From positions 800,001 through 864,000 of the forward strand of contig CAWIIB010000001.1 of NCBI GenBank assembly GCA_963836075.1: a stretch of DNA of 64,000 bases. Direction: 5' to 3'. How positions within the stretch are numbered: position 1 is the stretch's first letter; each line of letters begins with the position of its first letter. This DNA is from an uncultured Acidobacteriota bacterium. GTDB lineage: Bacteria; Acidobacteriota; JAQAZP01. Of this stretch, positions 46,292 to 51,476 are shown piece by piece. The notes below the pieces were generated by a model that worked only from the letters and a program-made list of their open reading frames with translations, made no database searches and was not told where the DNA came from. The position numbers and the translations under genes were made by a program.

Positions 46292-47674
46292 CTACAGATA
46301 GCCCAGGCTGGCCAGCCGCGCTTCCAGCTCGGGGTCCGCGGTGTGCGGAGCGGATGCCTCACCGGCCACGGTGGGTCGGGGCAGCATCCGCGACGGCAGC
46401 TTCCGCCGCAGCTCTTCCAGGCGCCGCGGGTTTTCCCGGCTGAGATCGGTCAGCTCCTGCGGGTCGTCCTCGAGGCAGTGCAACCGGGACGTCCCGTCCC
46501 CGGCCAGGACCAGCTTCCAGCCACCTCCGCGGACCATGGCCAGGGCCTGCCCCGGAACGGCTTCTCCGGGATAGCGCCGCCGCAACGCGGCGTTCACCGG
46601 CTCGGTGTACTGGGCCAGCGCCCATGGCCGCCCCGGAGGCACAGCGTCCCCCGGCAGCAGACCGCGGCGTTCCGGAAATCTGCGGAGGGCCTGGTGCGGC
46701 CCCTCCAGACGCTCCACGAGGGAGGGAAAGAGGTCCAGCGGCTGGAACTGGTCCCCCACCACCGCACCGCTTTCCAGTACTCCGGGCCAGTTGACCAGCA
46801 GGGGCACCCGTACCAGCGTGTCGGAGAGCGAGAATGCGTGGTCCATCATCCCCTGCTCCCCCAGGTGTTCCCCATGGTCGGAGGTGACCACGGAGAGCTG
46901 TCCGTGGGGGCGACCGGAACCGGCCACAAGCTCCAGCACCCGGCCCAGCGCCGCATCCATCCAGGAGAGGGCCCCGTCATACAGCGCACCCAGAATCTCG
47001 AAACCGCGGCGGTCCACCTGCATCCGGCCGCCGAAAAGGGCTGCGGCATCCTGGCTGACACCGCGGAGCTCTCCGTCCGTGGCGCCGATCCTCCGGAGAA
47101 AGGGCCGGGCGTACCGCTCCGGGGGAAAGTACGGCAGGTGCGTGTCCACGAAATGAAGGTAGAGAAAAAACGGCTCCGTTGACCTGAACGCCCGGCGGAG
47201 CAGCTGTTCCGCCGCCGCGGCCACCATTCCCGCCGAATCCTTCAGCGGGAGCACGCCCGCTGCACCGCCCGCCTGGGCTCCGGCCGGGACAACCTGCGGC
47301 GCGACTTCCTCCAGCCGGTGGAATCCCCGGTGCAGCCCGGTGTGCCGGCCGACGAATGCGCTGTTCGCCGATACGCCGAGGGTGCGGTATCCCATACGCT
47401 GCAGCCAGACCGGCAGCGTATCCAGGTCTTCGGAGAGCCGCGGCGCTCCGAAGTGGGCGCCGTGGTCCGCGGGATAGAGCCCGGTGAACAGCGACGCCAC
47501 ACTCTCCAGGGTCCAGCAGGAGGTGGCGATGGCCTGCTGGAAGCGCAGCCCCCCGGCGGCCAGGCGGTCCAGCGACGGCGTCACTGCACCGCCCCGGCCA
47601 TAGCAGCCGAGGCGGTCGGCACGTGCGGCGTCGAGCACCACCAACAGGATGTCGGGCCGCGGAGCGGTTCCCAT
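46292..47674 (-). CDS. Sulfatase-like alkaline-phosphatase-superfamily protein
   Basis: 'LVVLDAARADRL', 'CWTLESVASLFTG', 'DTHLPY', 'TSDHGE', 'RLASLGYL'. Confidence 0.88.
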   Translation of the reverse strand: MGTAPRPDILLVVLDAARADRLGCYGRGGAVTPSLDRLAAGGLRFQQAIATSCWTLESVASLFTGLYPADHGAHFGAPRLSEDLDTLPVWLQRMGYRTLGVSANSAFVGRHTGLHRGFHRLEEVAPQVVPAGAQAGGAAGVLPLKDSAGMVAAAAEQLLRRAFRSTEPFFLYLHFVDTHLPYFPPERYARPFLRRIGATDGELRGVSQDAAALFGGRMQVDRRGFEILGALYDGALSWMDAALGRVLELVAGSGRPHGQLSVVTSDHGEHLGEQGMMDHAFSLSDTLVRVPLLVNWPGVLESGAVVGDQFQPLDLFPSLVERLEGPHQALRRFPERRGLLPGDAVPPGRPWALAQYTEPVNAALRRRYPGEAVPGQALAMVRGGGWKLVLAGDGTSRLHCLEDDPQELTDLSRENPRRLEELRRKLPSRMLPRPTVAGEASAPHTADPELEARLASLGYL

Positions 47675-48059: not shown

Positions 48060-48138
48060 CGATAGAGCTCCATGATCCTGATCCTCCGAAAGACAACCTG
48101 GAACGTACCGCATCGGAGGCCGGCAGCTATCTGTTAGA

Positions 48139-48154
48139 TGCAAGTTGCAGGCCA
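48139..48154 (-). promoter_or_regulatory. Sigma54 promoter upstream of the small protein
   Basis: Minus strand TGGCCTGCAACTTGCA (GG-N10-GC). Confidence 0.55.
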
Positions 48155-48397
48155 CCCCCGGTTGCACATCAGGACTGGCTGAAATTTCGATATCGACCTG
48201 TCCGCGGGCAAAAAACAGGAGAGGCCAGCAATCAAGTGGGTAACTTTTTTCCACTTTTCGTCTCTTTTAATCCCTGATCCGTTTTCCCGGCGGGCGGCCC
48301 GATGTTGCCCCTGCGGCCGGAAACCGGTACCATGCACACCATGGACCCGGGAACCGGGCGACGTCGGTTCCGCAACAGATGGAGGAAAAGACCAGAA

Positions 48398-49534
48398 ATG
48401 GAGCCAGTTCTCGATACACGGCGGATCTACAGACTGTCCCTGGCCGGCCTGCTGGCCGTGCTGCTCAGCTTTACCTGGCTGACTTCCCCCTCGGTGGCCG
48501 AGGAGGAGGCCGCACCACCACGGATGGTGTTTTCGTCGGTGACCCACGATGCCGGCCAGGTGGAGCGGGGGGCGATGATCTCCCACCAGTTCACCTTTCG
48601 CAACACCGGCGGTTCGGATCTGGTGATCCTGAGCACCAAGGCCGGGTGAGGGTGCACGGTGACCGGGGACTACGACCGGGTCACCCCTCCTGGTCAGGAG
48701 GGGCGCATAACCGTCACACTGAACACGCAAAAATTCAACAAGCCGATCTCGAAAACCGTCACCATCACCACCAACGACCCGGCGTCGAAACGGGTGGTGT
48801 TGACCATGAAGGCCGCCGTTCGTTCGCCCCTGGAGATCAGGCCTGACGACCGGGCCGATTTCCGTGTCTACCACGGGGAGGGGGGCAGCCGGTTGCTGGG
48901 TCTGATTCTCCGTCAGGACACTGAAGCCAGGGTGGTGAGTATCCAGTCGAACAGCGAACTGTTCACCGTGAATTGGGGCCCCTGGTCCCCCTCCGAAAAC
49001 CCGTCCCCGCAGGAGCGGGAGATCTTTGCCGGGGCGGCCGGCAACTCCGCCGTCCGGCTGGAGATCGGTCTCAGTCCGGATGCCACCGTGGGCTACCACA
49101 GCGGGCGGATCACCATTTATCTCGACGGAACGGAGCAGAAGCAGCTGGAGATCAAGGCCCTGGCCCGGGTGATGGGCCGCATACACTTCACGCCCCAGTG
49201 GATCTACTTCGGCTCGGTAACCGCCGGTGAACCGCAGCAGGCCGAGCGGCTGCTGGAGGTCCGCGCCCACGGCGGGCTCCCCTTTACGGTCGGCGGGGTG
49301 GAATACCAGGGACTCCCGCTCCAGTGGGAGATCAAGCCGCTGGAGGAGGGCGCCGGCACCGACATTCTCTTCCGCTGGGACGGTTCCGAACCGGCGGGCA
49401 TCCACAAGGGCCGGGTGGTTATCCTGACCGACAACCCGGCCCAGCCCCGCATCGAAGTGCCGTTCAGCATCAACGTACTGGCCGCGGAACCTGAAAAGGA
49501 AGAGCCGGTGGACAACCGGCTGAAGAGGCGCTGA
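48398..49534 (+). CDS. Exported DUF1573/Ig-like multidomain protein with in-frame TGA at 48647 (probable selenocysteine, UGC motif)
   Basis: Signal peptide, 'HQFTFRNTGGSDLVILSTKAG-TGA-GCT....PPGQEGRITVTL...KTVTITTNDP'. ORFs 48302..48649 and 48659..49534 share one frame. Confidence 0.82.
48648..48689 (+). promoter_or_regulatory. SECIS-like hairpin
   Basis: GGTGACC (48658-64) pairs with GGTCACC (48679-85) around a G-initiated loop; GAGG/CCTC lower stem overlaps the UGA. Confidence 0.6.
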
Positions 49535-49538
49535 GTTC

Positions 49539-51476
49539 TCAGTCAGCGTGGATGGTGAAACTGCCGGCGGCGCTGTACTGGTCGCCGCTGGCGGTGCCGT
49601 CCAGCACGACCAGTTCCAGACCCATGGGACACTCCAGCAGCTGCGCGGGCATCTGGGCTGGGATCCGGATCGGCAGGTTGATCCGCCGTTCGTCGCCCGG
49701 CTGGATGCTGCCCGACCCGCGGCGGAAGCCGTTGACCCGGCTGCCGTCACAGCGGATCAGGTCGAGGCTGGCCTGGAAGGACTGCCGGGTATCCGAGATG
49801 TTGGCGATGGCCAGCTGGGTCCAGAGCTGTTCACCGGTGCTCACTTCCGCCTGGACCAGCAGGCCCACCTGGAAGACCTGAATCGTGCCTTCCCGGACCA
49901 CCGTCCAGCTCACCCGCTCGGTGAGCCGGCCGTCCGGATCGGCCAGCAACCAGGAATCGTGGAGGGTGACCACCGCCTCCAGAAGATGCTCTCCCGGAGC
50001 GACGGAGTCGGTCTGGAGCTGGTACTGGGTGCCATGGCCGTCGGCCAGCGGTGTCCCGTCCAGAGACCACTGCACGTCCACCACATCTGCCGCCGTCCGC
50101 ACCAGGAAGGACTGCACGGCGGTCTCCAGGATCACCTGCTGAGACGAAGGCTCCCGGGAGTCCACCGGCCCGGCGTAGTCAAAGATCTCCAGGGCCATGA
50201 TCTCGCGGCAGACCGGGTCGAACCCGCTGTCCAGCGACCGCATCAGGCAACTGTCCGCCGGGCGGAACTTGCCGTGGGCGTAATACTCGCATCCCTCGTT
50301 GATCCCCACCCCTTCGATACCCAGCCAGTGGTGCCACTTGAGCTGCTGGGCCGCCATGTCGAACCAGCCCATGGAGGTGCAGTTGGGAGCGGACGGTTCG
50401 GGTCCACTGTACGTGTCGTAGGGGTTCTGGTACTCGTCGGTGAGACCGCCGAAGCTGTGGCCGAACTCGTGCAGCATCAGCTGGTGGGCGCTGGACGAAC
50501 CGCCGGCAAAGACGGCGTAGGCACCGGCGCCACCGCCGTAGCGCGACGTGTTGACCAGCAGGATGATCGTGTCGTATTCAGGAACGGCCGCGGCCGCCTC
50601 GAGCACCAGGGAGGTCTGAGCGTAGAGCAGCTGCGGAACGCCGGCGTAGTTGAACGAGGAATTGAAGGCCGTGTCCACATAGACCGGGGGCGACTGGTCC
50701 GGCTGGTCGGTCCCCGACTGGCTGGAGACCACCTCGAGCTTGTGAATGTTGACAAAGGACGCGAAGCGGTTGAACGGCTCACTGCCCAGCAGACCGTCCA
50801 CCAGGTTGTCCACGTGGTCGGCAAAGAGACCCATTTCAAATTCGGTGTAACCGTCGCCCAGCACCAGGATGTCCAGACGGTTGGCCGGGTCACCGGTCTG
50901 ATACACCATTTCCGCCTGGGTGCCGGCAGTGGTGCGGCGGGACTGCCGTGTCCGGTCTTCGCTGAGCCCGATCTCCCGGCCATCCAGGACGGTGAGCGGG
51001 CCCCAGGGGTCGCCCGCCCGGGAGATTTCGATCCGCTGGCCGGGCCCCACCACTGGAACAACGACCGAAAACCGCTGGTCGTCTTCCAGTGAAGCAGGGC
51101 CGCCGGCCAGGGATCCGTCAACCACCGTATCGGCGTGAACGAGGAAGGGGTCGGCCAGGGGCCGGCGCAGGATCGCGTGGCCGCTGGCCTTGTCGATCAC
51201 GGTGATTTCCAGCGAACCACTGTCCGCTGCTGCAGCCGGCCCCCGGCGGGAGGATACCCGCTGCACCGAAGTGAGCTCGATGCCGTGGGGGCCGCTGCGG
51301 AAGACCAGCCGCTGGGCGGACCGGTCATCCATGGAGACGTCGTCAGCCATACACGGGGAAAAACCGAATGTGGTGGAAATGATGACCATGAGAAGAGCGG
51401 TGAACAGAACCCGGGGATACCTGGCATCGGATTTGATTACCGGGCGATGTGCGCTGATTCTGTTTCCCTTGCTCAT
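49539..51476 (-). CDS. Secreted M64 (IgA-peptidase-like) metallopeptidase with Ig-like C-terminal domains
   Basis: 'LDILVLGDGYT', 'YGGGAG', 'HEFGHSFGGLTDEY', 'CLMRSL...FDPVC'. Confidence 0.88.
   Translation of the reverse strand: MSKGNRISAHRPVIKSDARYPRVLFTALLMVIISTTFGFSPCMADDVSMDDRSAQRLVFRSGPHGIELTSVQRVSSRRGPAAAADSGSLEITVIDKASGHAILRRPLADPFLVHADTVVDGSLAGGPASLEDDQRFSVVVPVVGPGQRIEISRAGDPWGPLTVLDGREIGLSEDRTRQSRRTTAGTQAEMVYQTGDPANRLDILVLGDGYTEFEMGLFADHVDNLVDGLLGSEPFNRFASFVNIHKLEVVSSQSGTDQPDQSPPVYVDTAFNSSFNYAGVPQLLYAQTSLVLEAAAAVPEYDTIILLVNTSRYGGGAGAYAVFAGGSSSAHQLMLHEFGHSFGGLTDEYQNPYDTYSGPEPSAPNCTSMGWFDMAAQQLKWHHWLGIEGVGINEGCEYYAHGKFRPADSCLMRSLDSGFDPVCREIMALEIFDYAGPVDSREPSSQQVILETAVQSFLVRTAADVVDVQWSLDGTPLADGHGTQYQLQTDSVAPGEHLLEAVVTLHDSWLLADPDGRLTERVSWTVVREGTIQVFQVGLLVQAEVSTGEQLWTQLAIANISDTRQSFQASLDLIRCDGSRVNGFRRGSGSIQPGDERRINLPIRIPAQMPAQLLECPMGLELVVLDGTASGDQYSAAGSFTIHAD

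What the first reader, a model, noticed from the sequence alone, without database searches (positions are those of the whole stretch)
48398..49534. Probable exported selenoprotein: DUF1573-type Ig-fold protein with a U-G-C motif and SECIS-like hairpin
Seen: two ORFs in the same frame are separated only by TGA 48647-49, reading ...STKAG*GCTVTG.... Right after it GGTGACC/GGTCACC closes a hairpin with a G-initiated loop. Known: DUF1573 domains carry a conserved 'CGC(T)' motif at this point, just after 'F.F.N.G..L.I', and bacterial Sec insertion uses a hairpin immediately 3' of UGA. Inference: the TGA encodes Sec at about residue 84 of a 378-aa signal-peptide-bearing protein. A periplasmic Ig-fold protein with a UxC redox or metal site has no function known to me, and automated annotation would split it.
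Basis: partly seen in the sequence, partly recalled or inferred. Interest (0 to 1): 0.82.

Follow-up and report, generated by a model that had tools for sequence, protein, structure and literature searches.

The report
Exported DUF1573 selenoprotein, known family
This is a real gene for an exported three-domain protein that carries selenocysteine in a U-G-C motif, but it belongs to a selenoprotein family described in 2007 whose function is still unknown.

Summary
An in-frame TGA at 48647-48649 joins two ORFs into one 378-aa reading frame (48398-49534, +), and a GGTGACC/GGTCACC hairpin starts 11 nt after it. The selenocysteine reading is strongly supported. In 57 homologous domains from 61 related genomes, the aligned codon is TGA in 22 and TGC/TGT in 35, with no other codon. 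Two orthologs (82% and 77% identity) keep the TGA. Purifying selection acts on both sides of it. The two pieces match complementary halves of one Pfam domain. The genome has selA, selB, two selD genes and tRNA-Sec(UCA). All 22 TGA forms have a hairpin whose loop starts 20-24 nt after the UGA, and these hairpins are more stable than in the Cys forms. The AlphaFold model (pLDDT 91) shows three beta-sandwich domains, with U-G-C lying between two strands. The family is not new. 'OS_HP2 / DUF1573 (pfam07610), UxC/UGC' was listed as a selenoprotein family in 2007 and 2008 and again in reviews of 2022 and 2026, and NCBIfam has a model for it, NF041425. This protein scores below that model's cut-off. 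Its function remains unknown; I favour a redox-active selenenylsulfide site over metal binding. Extra observations are repeated Sec/Cys switching and a second Sec-form-specific hairpin with a GGUC loop.

The parts
48398..49534 (+). Whole selenoprotein gene: 378 codons plus the terminal TGA, with Sec at codon 84.
   Evidence: Searches show the frame. The Met at 48398 is conserved in both orthologs, but in-frame ATGs upstream (48302, 48332) are not excluded. dN/dS is 0.08-0.22 on both sides of the TGA.
48381..48386 (+). GGAGGA, a possible ribosome-binding site. GGAGG ends 12 nt before the ATG, which is rather far.
   Evidence: Read directly. This is inference only.
48398..48499 (+). Probable Sec-type signal peptide (residues 1-34): basic n-region, hydrophobic LSLAGLLAVLLSFTWL, then SVA before EEE.
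   Evidence: Sequence. AlphaFold gives a low-confidence helix at residues 8-23. Homologs have N-terminal hydrophobic or lipobox-like segments. The twin arginine is not conserved in one ortholog. No signal-peptide predictor was run.
48527..48820 (+). DUF1573 (PF07610) Ig-like domain, residues 44-141, spanning the TGA.
   Evidence: 83.3 bits, E 1.3e-23; the piece before the TGA matches profile positions 2-39, and the piece after it matches 54-98.
48647..48649 (+). UGA read as selenocysteine (residue 84).
   Evidence: the aligned codon is TGA in 22 and TGC/TGT in 35 of 57 homologous domains. Both orthologs keep TGA.
48647..48655 (+). U-G-C motif, the Sec form of the family's CGC.
   Evidence: C84 and C86 are at least 90% conserved. 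In the model, residues 83-86 are non-strand between strands 75-82 and 87-92.
48658..48685 (+). Hairpin H1, the SECIS candidate: stem GGUGACC/GGUCACC plus two inner pairs, loop GACUACGA starting 21 nt after the U of UGA.
   Evidence: -17.2 kcal/mol. An H1-type hairpin of -6.5 kcal/mol or better occurs in 22 of 22 Sec forms and 19 of 35 Cys forms.
48686..48701 (+). Hairpin H2: CCUCCU-GGUC-AGGAGG, encoding P-P-G-Q-E-G, with the GGUC loop at +45 to +48 from the U.
   Evidence: Paired cells are 74.0% in Sec forms and 46.0% in the Cys-form alignment. The Gly codon is GGU in 14 of 22 Sec forms and 5 of 35 Cys forms.
48830..49177 (+). Second beta-sandwich domain (about residues 145-260), with no Pfam family.
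   Evidence: Secondary structure. The domain is alignable in homologs of about 340 aa.
49178..49483 (+). Third beta-sandwich domain (about residues 261-362), with no Pfam family.
49532..49534 (+). True stop codon, also TGA; both orthologs end at the same ...RLKRR.

Best explanation
The stretch 48398-49534 (+) is one gene for an exported protein of 378 aa, made of three beta-sandwich (Ig-like, ASH/PapD-type) domains. The first domain is DUF1573. The UGA at codon 84 is decoded as selenocysteine by tRNA-Sec(UCA) and SelB. SelB would be recruited by mRNA structure just downstream: hairpin H1 at 48658-48685, possibly together with hairpin H2 and its GGUC loop at 48686-48701. The product carries U-G-C where most relatives carry C-G-C, between two strands of domain 1. 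It is a further member of the published DUF1573/OS_HP2 'UGC' selenoprotein family.

Shown by computation here: the single frame, the Sec/Cys alternation, the Sec machinery, the Sec-form-specific hairpins and the predicted fold. No selenium insertion was measured.

Inferred: export through the Sec pathway, and the chemistry. My preferred mechanism (about 0.5) is that Sec84 and Cys86 form a reversible selenenylsulfide, so that domain 1 acts as an extracytoplasmic redox centre that exchanges thiols and disulfides, or reduces a substrate, on the cell envelope. Domains 2 and 3 would serve as spacer or binding modules.
For: - **One frame.** Searches show a single frame. The two pieces hit complementary halves of PF07610 (profile positions 2-39 and 54-98), and the whole protein scores 83.3 bits.
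- **Sec/Cys alternation.** Of the 69 homolog rows found in 61 genomes, 22 carry one TGA. I fetched 57 of them, including all 22. In every case the TGA aligns with the first Cys of CGC, and the other 35 have TGC (29) or TGT (6).
- **Orthologs.** The two orthologs, at 82% and 77% identity, keep the TGA. dN/dS is 0.08-0.16 before the TGA and 0.17-0.22 after it.
- **Sec machinery in the same genome.** selB scores 365.7 bits, selA 562.8 bits, there are two selD genes each with its own in-frame TGA, and tRNA-Sec scores 74.7 bits with anticodon TCA.
- **SelB across genomes.** All 13 genomes with a TGA form have SelB above the cut-off. The 4 homolog rows in the 10 genomes without a SelB match have no TGA.
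- **Hairpin H1.** The mean best hairpin is -11.24 kcal/mol in 22 Sec forms and -6.19 in 35 Cys forms (Mann-Whitney p 1.4e-5). For the fixed window +9..+39 the means are -11.76 and -5.5 at equal G+C (p 2e-8). Related genomes are not independent, so these p-values overstate.
- **A natural comparison.** One genome (G005) has sister tandem paralogs, one TGA and one TGC (support 99*). Both hairpins are kept only in the TGA copy (sequences).
- **Fold.** pLDDT is 91.4 and pTM 0.77, with three beta-sandwich domains. The best Foldseek hits are arrays of HYDIN-type Ig domains.
- **Redox precedent.** A periplasm-facing CGC is the mutation-sensitive active site of MauE, a disulfide-forming protein (passages read in bioRxiv 10.64898/2026.03.05.709764).
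Against: - There is no experimental evidence of selenium insertion.
- The hairpin alone is not better than shuffled sequence (z -0.26).
- No Rfam family matches the region. The best match is serC leader at 14.6 bits, against a gathering score of 35.
- RNAalifold finds no common structure for the 22 Sec forms, because H1 sits in different registers in different clades.
- 19 of 35 Cys forms also reach -6.5 kcal/mol in the H1 region.
- The protein scores 79 bits against NF041425, below its cut-off of 100.
- Nothing speaks for a redox role in particular. I found no conserved neighbour gene: only a Mur ligase next to 3 Cys-form genes, from clustering 20 loci. I found no fusion to a catalytic or thioredoxin-like domain in 10 multidomain relatives. 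No coordinates were available to measure the Se-S distance.
- The read evidence is thin. One contig of an independent metagenome spans the TGA. Six of its eight differences are listed and none is at the TGA, but two are not shown.
Confidence: 0.85

Rival explanations
1. Same selenoprotein, different chemistry: U84 and C86 form a two-coordinate site for a soft metal or metalloid (Cu(I), Hg(II), As(III), Zn, or selenium/sulfur species), and the protein is an envelope metal carrier or sensor rather than a redox enzyme.
For: Published lists of prokaryotic selenoproteins include metal-handling families such as MerP/MerT-like, CopZ-like and P-type ATPase UxxC (tables read). CXC motifs that bind Cu or Zn are known (recalled; di-Cys zinc sites appear in PMC6255694, seen only in the search listing). 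The only nearly invariant potential ligands are the two Cys/Sec positions.
Against: No conserved His, Met or third Cys lies near the motif in the alignment. No metal-resistance or transport genes are among the 10 neighbouring ORFs scanned, and no neighbour family recurs across the 20 loci clustered. Sec is usually found in redox sites (established knowledge, restated in the reviews read).
Confidence: 0.3
2. The TGA is a genuine stop: the locus is a pseudogene, or two separate genes of 83 aa and 291 aa.
For: Table 11 gives two ORFs. Public gene callers report the 290-aa piece of a relative.
Against: The TGA sits at the same column in 22 homologs from 13 genomes. Both sides are under purifying selection in one frame. 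The pieces are complementary halves of one domain. The 291-aa piece would lack a signal peptide and half of its first domain.
Confidence: 0.02
3. The TGA is an assembly or sequencing error for TGC/TGT.
For: The best DNA run laid has no contig over 48525-48710, so the window's own position is not re-confirmed by reads.
Against: Two separately assembled genomes of the same genus have TGA at the same codon, as do 19 further homologs. A contig from another metagenome spans the site, and no difference is listed there (with the caveat that two of its eight differences are not shown).
Confidence: 0.01
4. TGA is read as another amino acid, either through genome-wide recoding (Trp or Gly) or through near-cognate read-through, and not as Sec.
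For: None specific to this gene.
Against: The gene itself and both orthologs terminate at a TGA after ...RLKRR. The column is Cys in all 35 non-TGA homologs, not Trp or Gly. The full Sec machinery is present.
Confidence: 0.01

Closest known systems
OS_HP2 / 'DUF1573 domain-containing protein' selenoprotein family (Zhang et al. 2007, PMC1976440; Zhang & Gladyshev 2008, PMC2398784; reviews PMC9312934 and PMC13188914; NCBIfam NF041425)
   Same: Same Pfam domain (pfam07610) and same UxC/UGC motif, with Sec replacing the first Cys. Cys homologs are abundant: 354 in the 2008 table, and 17,708 library proteins at E<=1e-3 here. Function is unknown in all these sources.
   Different: The window protein scores 79 bits against NF041425, below its 100-bit cut-off, and so do the other three copies in this genome (84, 66 and 49 bits). 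It is a three-domain protein of 378 aa. The one titled record I saw for a close ortholog is labelled Acidobacteriota (L097), whereas the family was first found in deltaproteobacterial worm symbionts and ocean metagenomes. I did not see the papers' figures or supplements, so I cannot compare their SECIS models or architectures.
Cys-form three-domain DUF1573 proteins (about 320-400 aa)
   Same: Collinear over residues of about 20-360 at 23-30% identity, with an N-terminal hydrophobic or lipobox-like segment, the CGCT and TNDP motifs, and the same three-domain length.
   Different: They carry Cys instead of Sec. The mRNA after their Cys codon folds less stably.
Redox-active CXC/CGC sites: MauE (bioRxiv 10.64898/2026.03.05.709764, passages read). 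Erv2 CGC, the CGC peptide mimic of PDI and thioredoxin reductase GCUG are recalled, not checked here.
   Same: A C-G-C pair facing the periplasm or an oxidising compartment and acting as a disulfide relay. A neighbouring Cys/Sec pair forms a small-ring (seleno)sulfide.
   Different: These proteins have entirely different folds: a membrane four-helix protein, a flavoenzyme tail and a pyridine nucleotide-disulfide reductase. This is a resemblance of motif only, with no homology.
Bacterial SECIS as in E. coli fdhF (recalled: hairpin directly after UGA, with a GGUC-type apical loop bound by SelB)
   Same: A hairpin begins 11 nt after the UGA, with its loop 20-24 nt downstream, in all 22 Sec forms. 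The loop is GGUC in the clade of the paralog at G000:C1:411713.
   Different: In the window gene the H1 loop is GACUACGA, and the GGUC loop lies on a second hairpin 45 nt after the U. The register of H1 differs between clades. No Rfam model matches.

Membership tests
Pfam PF07610 (DUF1573) | Score above the gathering threshold over the whole domain. | tested here: met
   83.3 bits against a cut-off of 26.1; residues 44-141 match profile positions 2-98 of 98.
Pfam PF07610 (DUF1573) | Conserved C-G-C(T) motif after the F.F.N.G..L.I stretch. | tested here: met
   The motif is U-G-C-T at residues 84-87. C84, C86, F65, N69, G71 and L75 are at least 90% conserved among 60 aligned proteins.
Published DUF1573/OS_HP2 selenoprotein family | A pfam07610 domain with Sec in a UxC/UGC motif, aligned to Cys in homologs. 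| tested here: met
   The family definition was read in tables of PMC2398784 and PMC9312934.
NCBIfam NF041425 (OS_HP2_seleno) | Score at or above the curated cut-off of 100 bits. | tested here: not met
   79 bits as a protein and 73.4 bits in the genome scan. The protein is related to this model but falls outside its curated bounds.
Bacterial selenoprotein gene | In-frame UGA aligned with Cys (or Sec) in homologs. | tested here: met
   22 TGA and 35 TGC/TGT among the 57 domains examined. These are 57 of the 69 rows; the 12 rows not fetched carry no TGA.
Bacterial selenoprotein gene | SECIS-like stem-loop shortly after the UGA. | tested here: met
   H1 is -17.2 kcal/mol with its loop at +21. 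A hairpin of -6.5 kcal/mol or better occurs in 22 of 22 Sec forms, and it is more stable than in Cys forms. bSECISearch itself was not available, and its criteria are recalled, not checked.
Bacterial selenoprotein gene | selA, selB, selD and tRNA-Sec in the genome. | tested here: met
   all are above the curated cut-offs. ARAGORN finds tRNA-SeC with anticodon tca.
Bacterial selenoprotein gene | Selenium demonstrated in the polypeptide. | not testable with these tools
   This needs 75Se labelling or mass spectrometry.
Exported (Sec-pathway) protein | Cleavable N-terminal signal peptide. | tested here: inconclusive
   Only inspected by eye: n-, h- and c-regions with SVA before EEE, a low-confidence helix at residues 8-23, and similar N-termini in homologs. 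No predictor was available.
Thiol/selenol oxidoreductase (by function, not by family) | Reversible Se-S bond between residues 84 and 86, and catalytic exchange. | not testable with these tools

The most novel reading that the evidence does not exclude
The U/C-G-C motif of DUF1573 is the active site of a so far unrecognised class of extracytoplasmic redox (or chalcogen/metal-transfer) modules, built on an Ig-like fold instead of a thioredoxin fold. It would be used by thousands of envelope proteins. The repeated switching between Sec and Cys marks the site as catalytic. At least 10 changes are needed on a 57-domain tree, and at least 4 are forced by well-supported branches. In addition, Sec insertion in part of the family may rely on a two-hairpin signal whose GGUC loop lies about 40 nt after the UGA, further away than in the classical bacterial SECIS.
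Probability: 0.3. Interest if true: 0.6.

Novelty: new member of a known kind. Interest (0 to 1): 0.3.

Why it matters
For annotation, this gene, two further TGA-containing paralogs in the same genome and their relatives fall below the curated NF041425 cut-off. Public gene calls truncate them, so their products are reported as fragments. For biology, DUF1573 is a very large family of envelope proteins with a nearly invariant CGC motif and no known function. Sec has replaced the first Cys repeatedly, and that is the best available hint that the motif does chemistry. This makes a simple biochemical test (redox potential, thiol exchange, metal binding of the isolated domain) worth doing. The finding does not reveal a new kind of system.

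Tried and rejected
- **Consensus RNA structure.** RNAalifold on the 22 Sec-form downstream regions returned no pairs, because H1 is in different registers in different clades. I therefore compared per-sequence hairpin energies instead.
- **Rfam.** A scan of 48560-48800 gave only sub-threshold chance-level matches: serC leader at 14.6 bits and SAM-Chlorobi at 11.7 bits.
- **Solved structures by sequence.** The only hit was a chance match at E 0.64.
- **Foldseek on the whole model.** It returned generic arrays of Ig/ASH domains (ciliary central-apparatus proteins, titin, cadherins), with no enzyme or site information. I did not fold domain 1 alone, and I did not run the VIA-align searches.
- **Gene neighbourhood.** The flanking genes are on the opposite strand: a sulfatase and a 146-aa ORF with no family upstream, and a Peptidase_M64 protein downstream. 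Ddl and Rex lie further off. I clustered ORFs from 20 loci, called with my own crude caller. The only recurrent neighbour was a Mur ligase, next to 3 Cys-form genes. I draw no functional conclusion from this.
- **Domain fusions.** Ten multidomain relatives showed only repeated DUF1573/ASH-type domains, plus one T9SS sorting tail.
- **Reads.** All four runs laid are Logan contigs. The best holder has no contig over the TGA. One contig of a salt-marsh metagenome spans it. A metatranscriptome contig covers 48779-49020 only, which does not show transcription or read-through.
- **Promoter and terminator scan.** Nothing useful for this gene.
- **The 538-aa antisense ORF at 48134-49750 (-).** It has no Pfam family, and I regard it as a by-product of high G+C content.
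- **Twin-arginine export.** Considered and set aside, because the RR is QR in one ortholog.
- **Not done.** I made no request for paper supplements. The supplements and figures of the 2007 and 2008 papers may hold OS_HP2 alignments and SECIS drawings that I did not see. I did not use the search for homologous proteins, the listing of cluster members or complex prediction.
Full report
**Observation**

TGA lies at 48647-48649, in the frame of the ATG at 48398. With TGA read as U, the frame runs to the TGA at 49532-49534 without any other stop. It gives a 378-aa protein that reads ...LSTKAG-U-GCTVTGDYDR... with U at residue 84. The stored P0001 has one extra last residue, because the terminal stop was read as well. 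Table 11 gives two ORFs, ending at 48649 and starting at 48659.

GGTGACC (48658-48664) pairs with GGTCACC (48679-48685). The best single hairpin is 28 nt long, has 9 bp and -17.2 kcal/mol, and its loop GACUACGA starts 21 nt after the U of UGA. Taken alone, this fold is not better than shuffled sequence of this G+C-rich stretch (z -0.26; 76 of 200 shuffles fold as well). The hairpin counts as evidence only through comparison with homologs.

**One domain, split by the TGA**

The read-through protein matches Pfam DUF1573 (PF07610) over residues 44-141 at 83.3 bits and E 1.3e-23. It also matches the HYDIN/VesB-like Ig domain. The piece before the TGA matches profile positions 2-39, and the piece after it matches 54-98. 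The stop therefore lies inside a single domain.

NCBIfam gives NF041425, 'OS_HP2 family (seleno)protein', at 79 bits, below its curated cut-off of 100.

**Sec/Cys alternation**

A search of the window's genome and 60 relatives found homologs in 33 of 61 genomes, 69 rows in all. Of these, 22 had exactly one TGA inside the match, 2 had a TAA and 45 had no stop. I fetched 57 of the 69, including all 22 with a TGA. The 12 not fetched are weak rows without a TGA.

At the column aligned to residue 84, the codon is TGA in 22, TGC in 29 and TGT in 6, and nothing else occurs. The two same-genus orthologs (82% and 77% identity) keep the TGA.

dN/dS against these two orthologs is 0.08 and 0.16 for residues 36-83, 0.17 and 0.18 for residues 85-145, and 0.22 and 0.19 for residues 146-378. 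The signal-peptide part evolves freely. Both halves are therefore translated in this frame.

In a 60-protein alignment of full-length Cys forms, C84 and C86 are at least 90% conserved.

**Sec machinery**

The same genome encodes:
- SelB, at 365.7 bits against a cut-off of 242.
- SelA, at 562.8 bits.
- Two SelD genes, each with its own in-frame TGA.
- A tRNA-Sec at 74.7 bits, with anticodon TCA.

All 13 genomes that hold a TGA form have SelB above the cut-off. The 10 of 61 genomes without a SelB match contribute 4 homolog rows, none with a TGA. Because 51 of 61 genomes have SelB, this agrees with the reading but is weak on its own.

**RNA structure after the UGA**

All 22 Sec forms have a hairpin of -6.5 to -18.1 kcal/mol whose loop starts 20-24 nt after the U. 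Only 19 of 35 Cys forms reach -6.5. The mean is -11.24 for Sec forms and -6.19 for Cys forms (p 1.4e-5). For the fixed window +9..+39 the means are -11.76 and -5.5 at equal G+C (p 2e-8). Related genomes are not independent, so these p-values overstate the case.

The register and loop of this hairpin (H1) differ between clades. For that reason RNAalifold finds no consensus structure.

A second hairpin (H2, 48686-48701 in the window) is in a constant register and encodes P-P-G-Q-E-G. Its cells are 74.0% paired in Sec forms. In the Cys-form alignment they are 46.0% paired; that alignment holds 35 Cys rows plus the window row. Covariation in H2 is modest.

The Gly codon in H2 is GGU in 14 of 22 Sec forms and in 5 of 35 Cys forms. 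It reads GGUC in 9 of 22 Sec forms and 1 of 35 Cys forms. GGUC is, from recall, the loop type that SelB recognises in E. coli fdhF.

In the clade of the paralog at G000:C1:411713, the GGUC loop sits on H1 at +20 and H2 is weak. Which hairpin binds SelB in the window gene is open.

One genome (G005) offers a natural comparison. It has tandem sister paralogs (support 99*), one with TGA and one with TGC, and both hairpins are kept only in the TGA copy.

**Evolution**

On a tree of the 57 domains, built with the Sec/Cys column masked, the Sec/Cys state needs at least 10 changes. At least 4 are forced by well-supported branches, and shuffled labels need 17.7 on average. The tree rests on only 101 columns and many forks are unresolved. 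Even so, Sec and Cys have clearly been exchanged several times.

**Protein**

AlphaFold2, run with the 60-sequence alignment, gives mean pLDDT 91.4 and pTM 0.77. The model has a low-confidence N-terminal helix (residues 8-23) followed by three beta-sandwich domains. Residues 83-86 (G-U-G-C) are non-strand, between strands 75-82 and 87-92.

Foldseek finds arrays of HYDIN-type, titin and cadherin Ig domains, and nothing enzymatic.

The N-terminus has the look of a Sec-type signal peptide, with SVA before EEE. Homologs have similar or lipobox-like N-termini. No predictor was available, so export is inferred.

The HMMER scan of 1.84 billion representatives found 17,708 relatives at E<=1e-3, 4,198 at E<=1e-10 and 33 at E<=1e-30. 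The best hit is a 290-aa protein, 76% identical, that covers residues 88-377 only. This shows that public gene calls truncate such genes at the TGA.

**Context**

The gene stands alone on the + strand. Upstream on the opposite strand are a sulfatase and a small ORF with no family. Downstream, convergent, is a Peptidase_M64 gene. Ddl and Rex lie further away. The same ORF layout around the gene is seen in the two orthologous loci.

Across 20 loci no neighbour recurs, except a Mur ligase beside 3 Cys-form genes. Ten multidomain relatives carry only repeated DUF1573/ASH domains. Context therefore gives no functional lead.

**Reads**

One contig of an independent salt-marsh metagenome spans 48541-48750 with eight differences. 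The six that are listed do not touch the TGA; two are not shown. The best holder has no contig over the site. A metatranscriptome contig covers only 48779-49020.

**What is known**

OS_HP2 was named in the 2007 study of Olavius symbionts, with 2 Sec sequences (Table 2 and section 12 read). The 2008 ocean-sampling study lists 'OS_HP2, pfam07610, UxC, 2 selenoproteins, 354 Cys homologs' (passage read). [quoted passage not shown]

A full-text search for 'DUF1573' found only 4 papers, none on function. One of them lists a DUF1573 gene in a table of the iron-dependent stimulon of Bacteroides thetaiotaomicron.

The family is therefore known and its function is not. The only taxon name I saw for a close ortholog is 'Acidobacteriota bacterium', in a record title (L097).

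**Mechanism**

Shown by computation: one frame, Sec/Cys alternation, the Sec machinery, Sec-form-specific hairpins and the fold. No selenium insertion was measured.

Inferred: export, and the chemistry of U-G-C. I favour a reversible selenenylsulfide acting as a redox centre, at about 0.5. Sec is typically used in redox sites. A periplasm-facing CGC is the mutation-sensitive active site of the disulfide-forming protein MauE (passages read). From recall, Erv2 and CGC peptides also behave as disulfide relays. The main rival, at about 0.3, is a two-coordinate soft-metal or chalcogen-binding site. Nothing in the neighbourhood or domain fusions decides between them.

**Verdict**

This is a correct and well-supported selenoprotein call, and a new member of a known family.

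Noticed in passing
G000:C9:2364022-2365940 (L076; also L024/L027), with the same pair of genes in both same-genus genomes (L060, L063): Two DUF1573 genes lie in tandem on the minus strand. One has TGA in the S-U-G-C-T motif. The other is a divergent copy with H-C-S-C-I-S instead of CGC, on a very long branch (2.34, support 100*). They could be a partner pair, but this was not pursued.
   Followed up: partly
G000:C1:411680-412024 (L026, L077): A third TGA-containing DUF1573 paralog. Its first hairpin carries a GGUC tetraloop 20 nt after the UGA (-11.3 kcal/mol), and the hairpin is conserved in both same-genus genomes.
   Followed up: partly
G000:C4:17381-18301 and G000:C9:892330-893256 (L018, L019): The genome has two selD genes, each with one in-frame TGA. 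SelD itself is therefore probably a selenoprotein here, in two copies.
   Followed up: no
window 48134-49750 (-): A 538-aa open frame runs antisense over the whole selenoprotein gene and is longer than either table-11 piece. It has no Pfam family. It is probably an artefact of high G+C content, but a gene caller could pick it.
   Followed up: partly
window 49539-51476 (-) and 46292-47674 (-): The gene is flanked by genes for a Peptidase_M64-like protein (645 aa) and a sulfatase (460 aa). ORFs of matching size and strand flank the gene in the two same-genus loci, though these were not scanned against Pfam. No link to the selenoprotein was found.
   Followed up: partly
61 related genomes: SelB above the curated cut-off is found in 51 of 61 sampled genomes of this phylum. 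Two of the 51 (G025, G048) are unpublished genomes.
   Followed up: no
L092:4455-5900, L093:7220-8752, L094:4310-5734: A Mur-ligase gene lies next to the three-domain Cys-form DUF1573 gene in three genomes. The window has a D-Ala-D-Ala ligase gene about 2.6 kb downstream. This may be coincidence or a loose link to the cell wall.
   Followed up: partly
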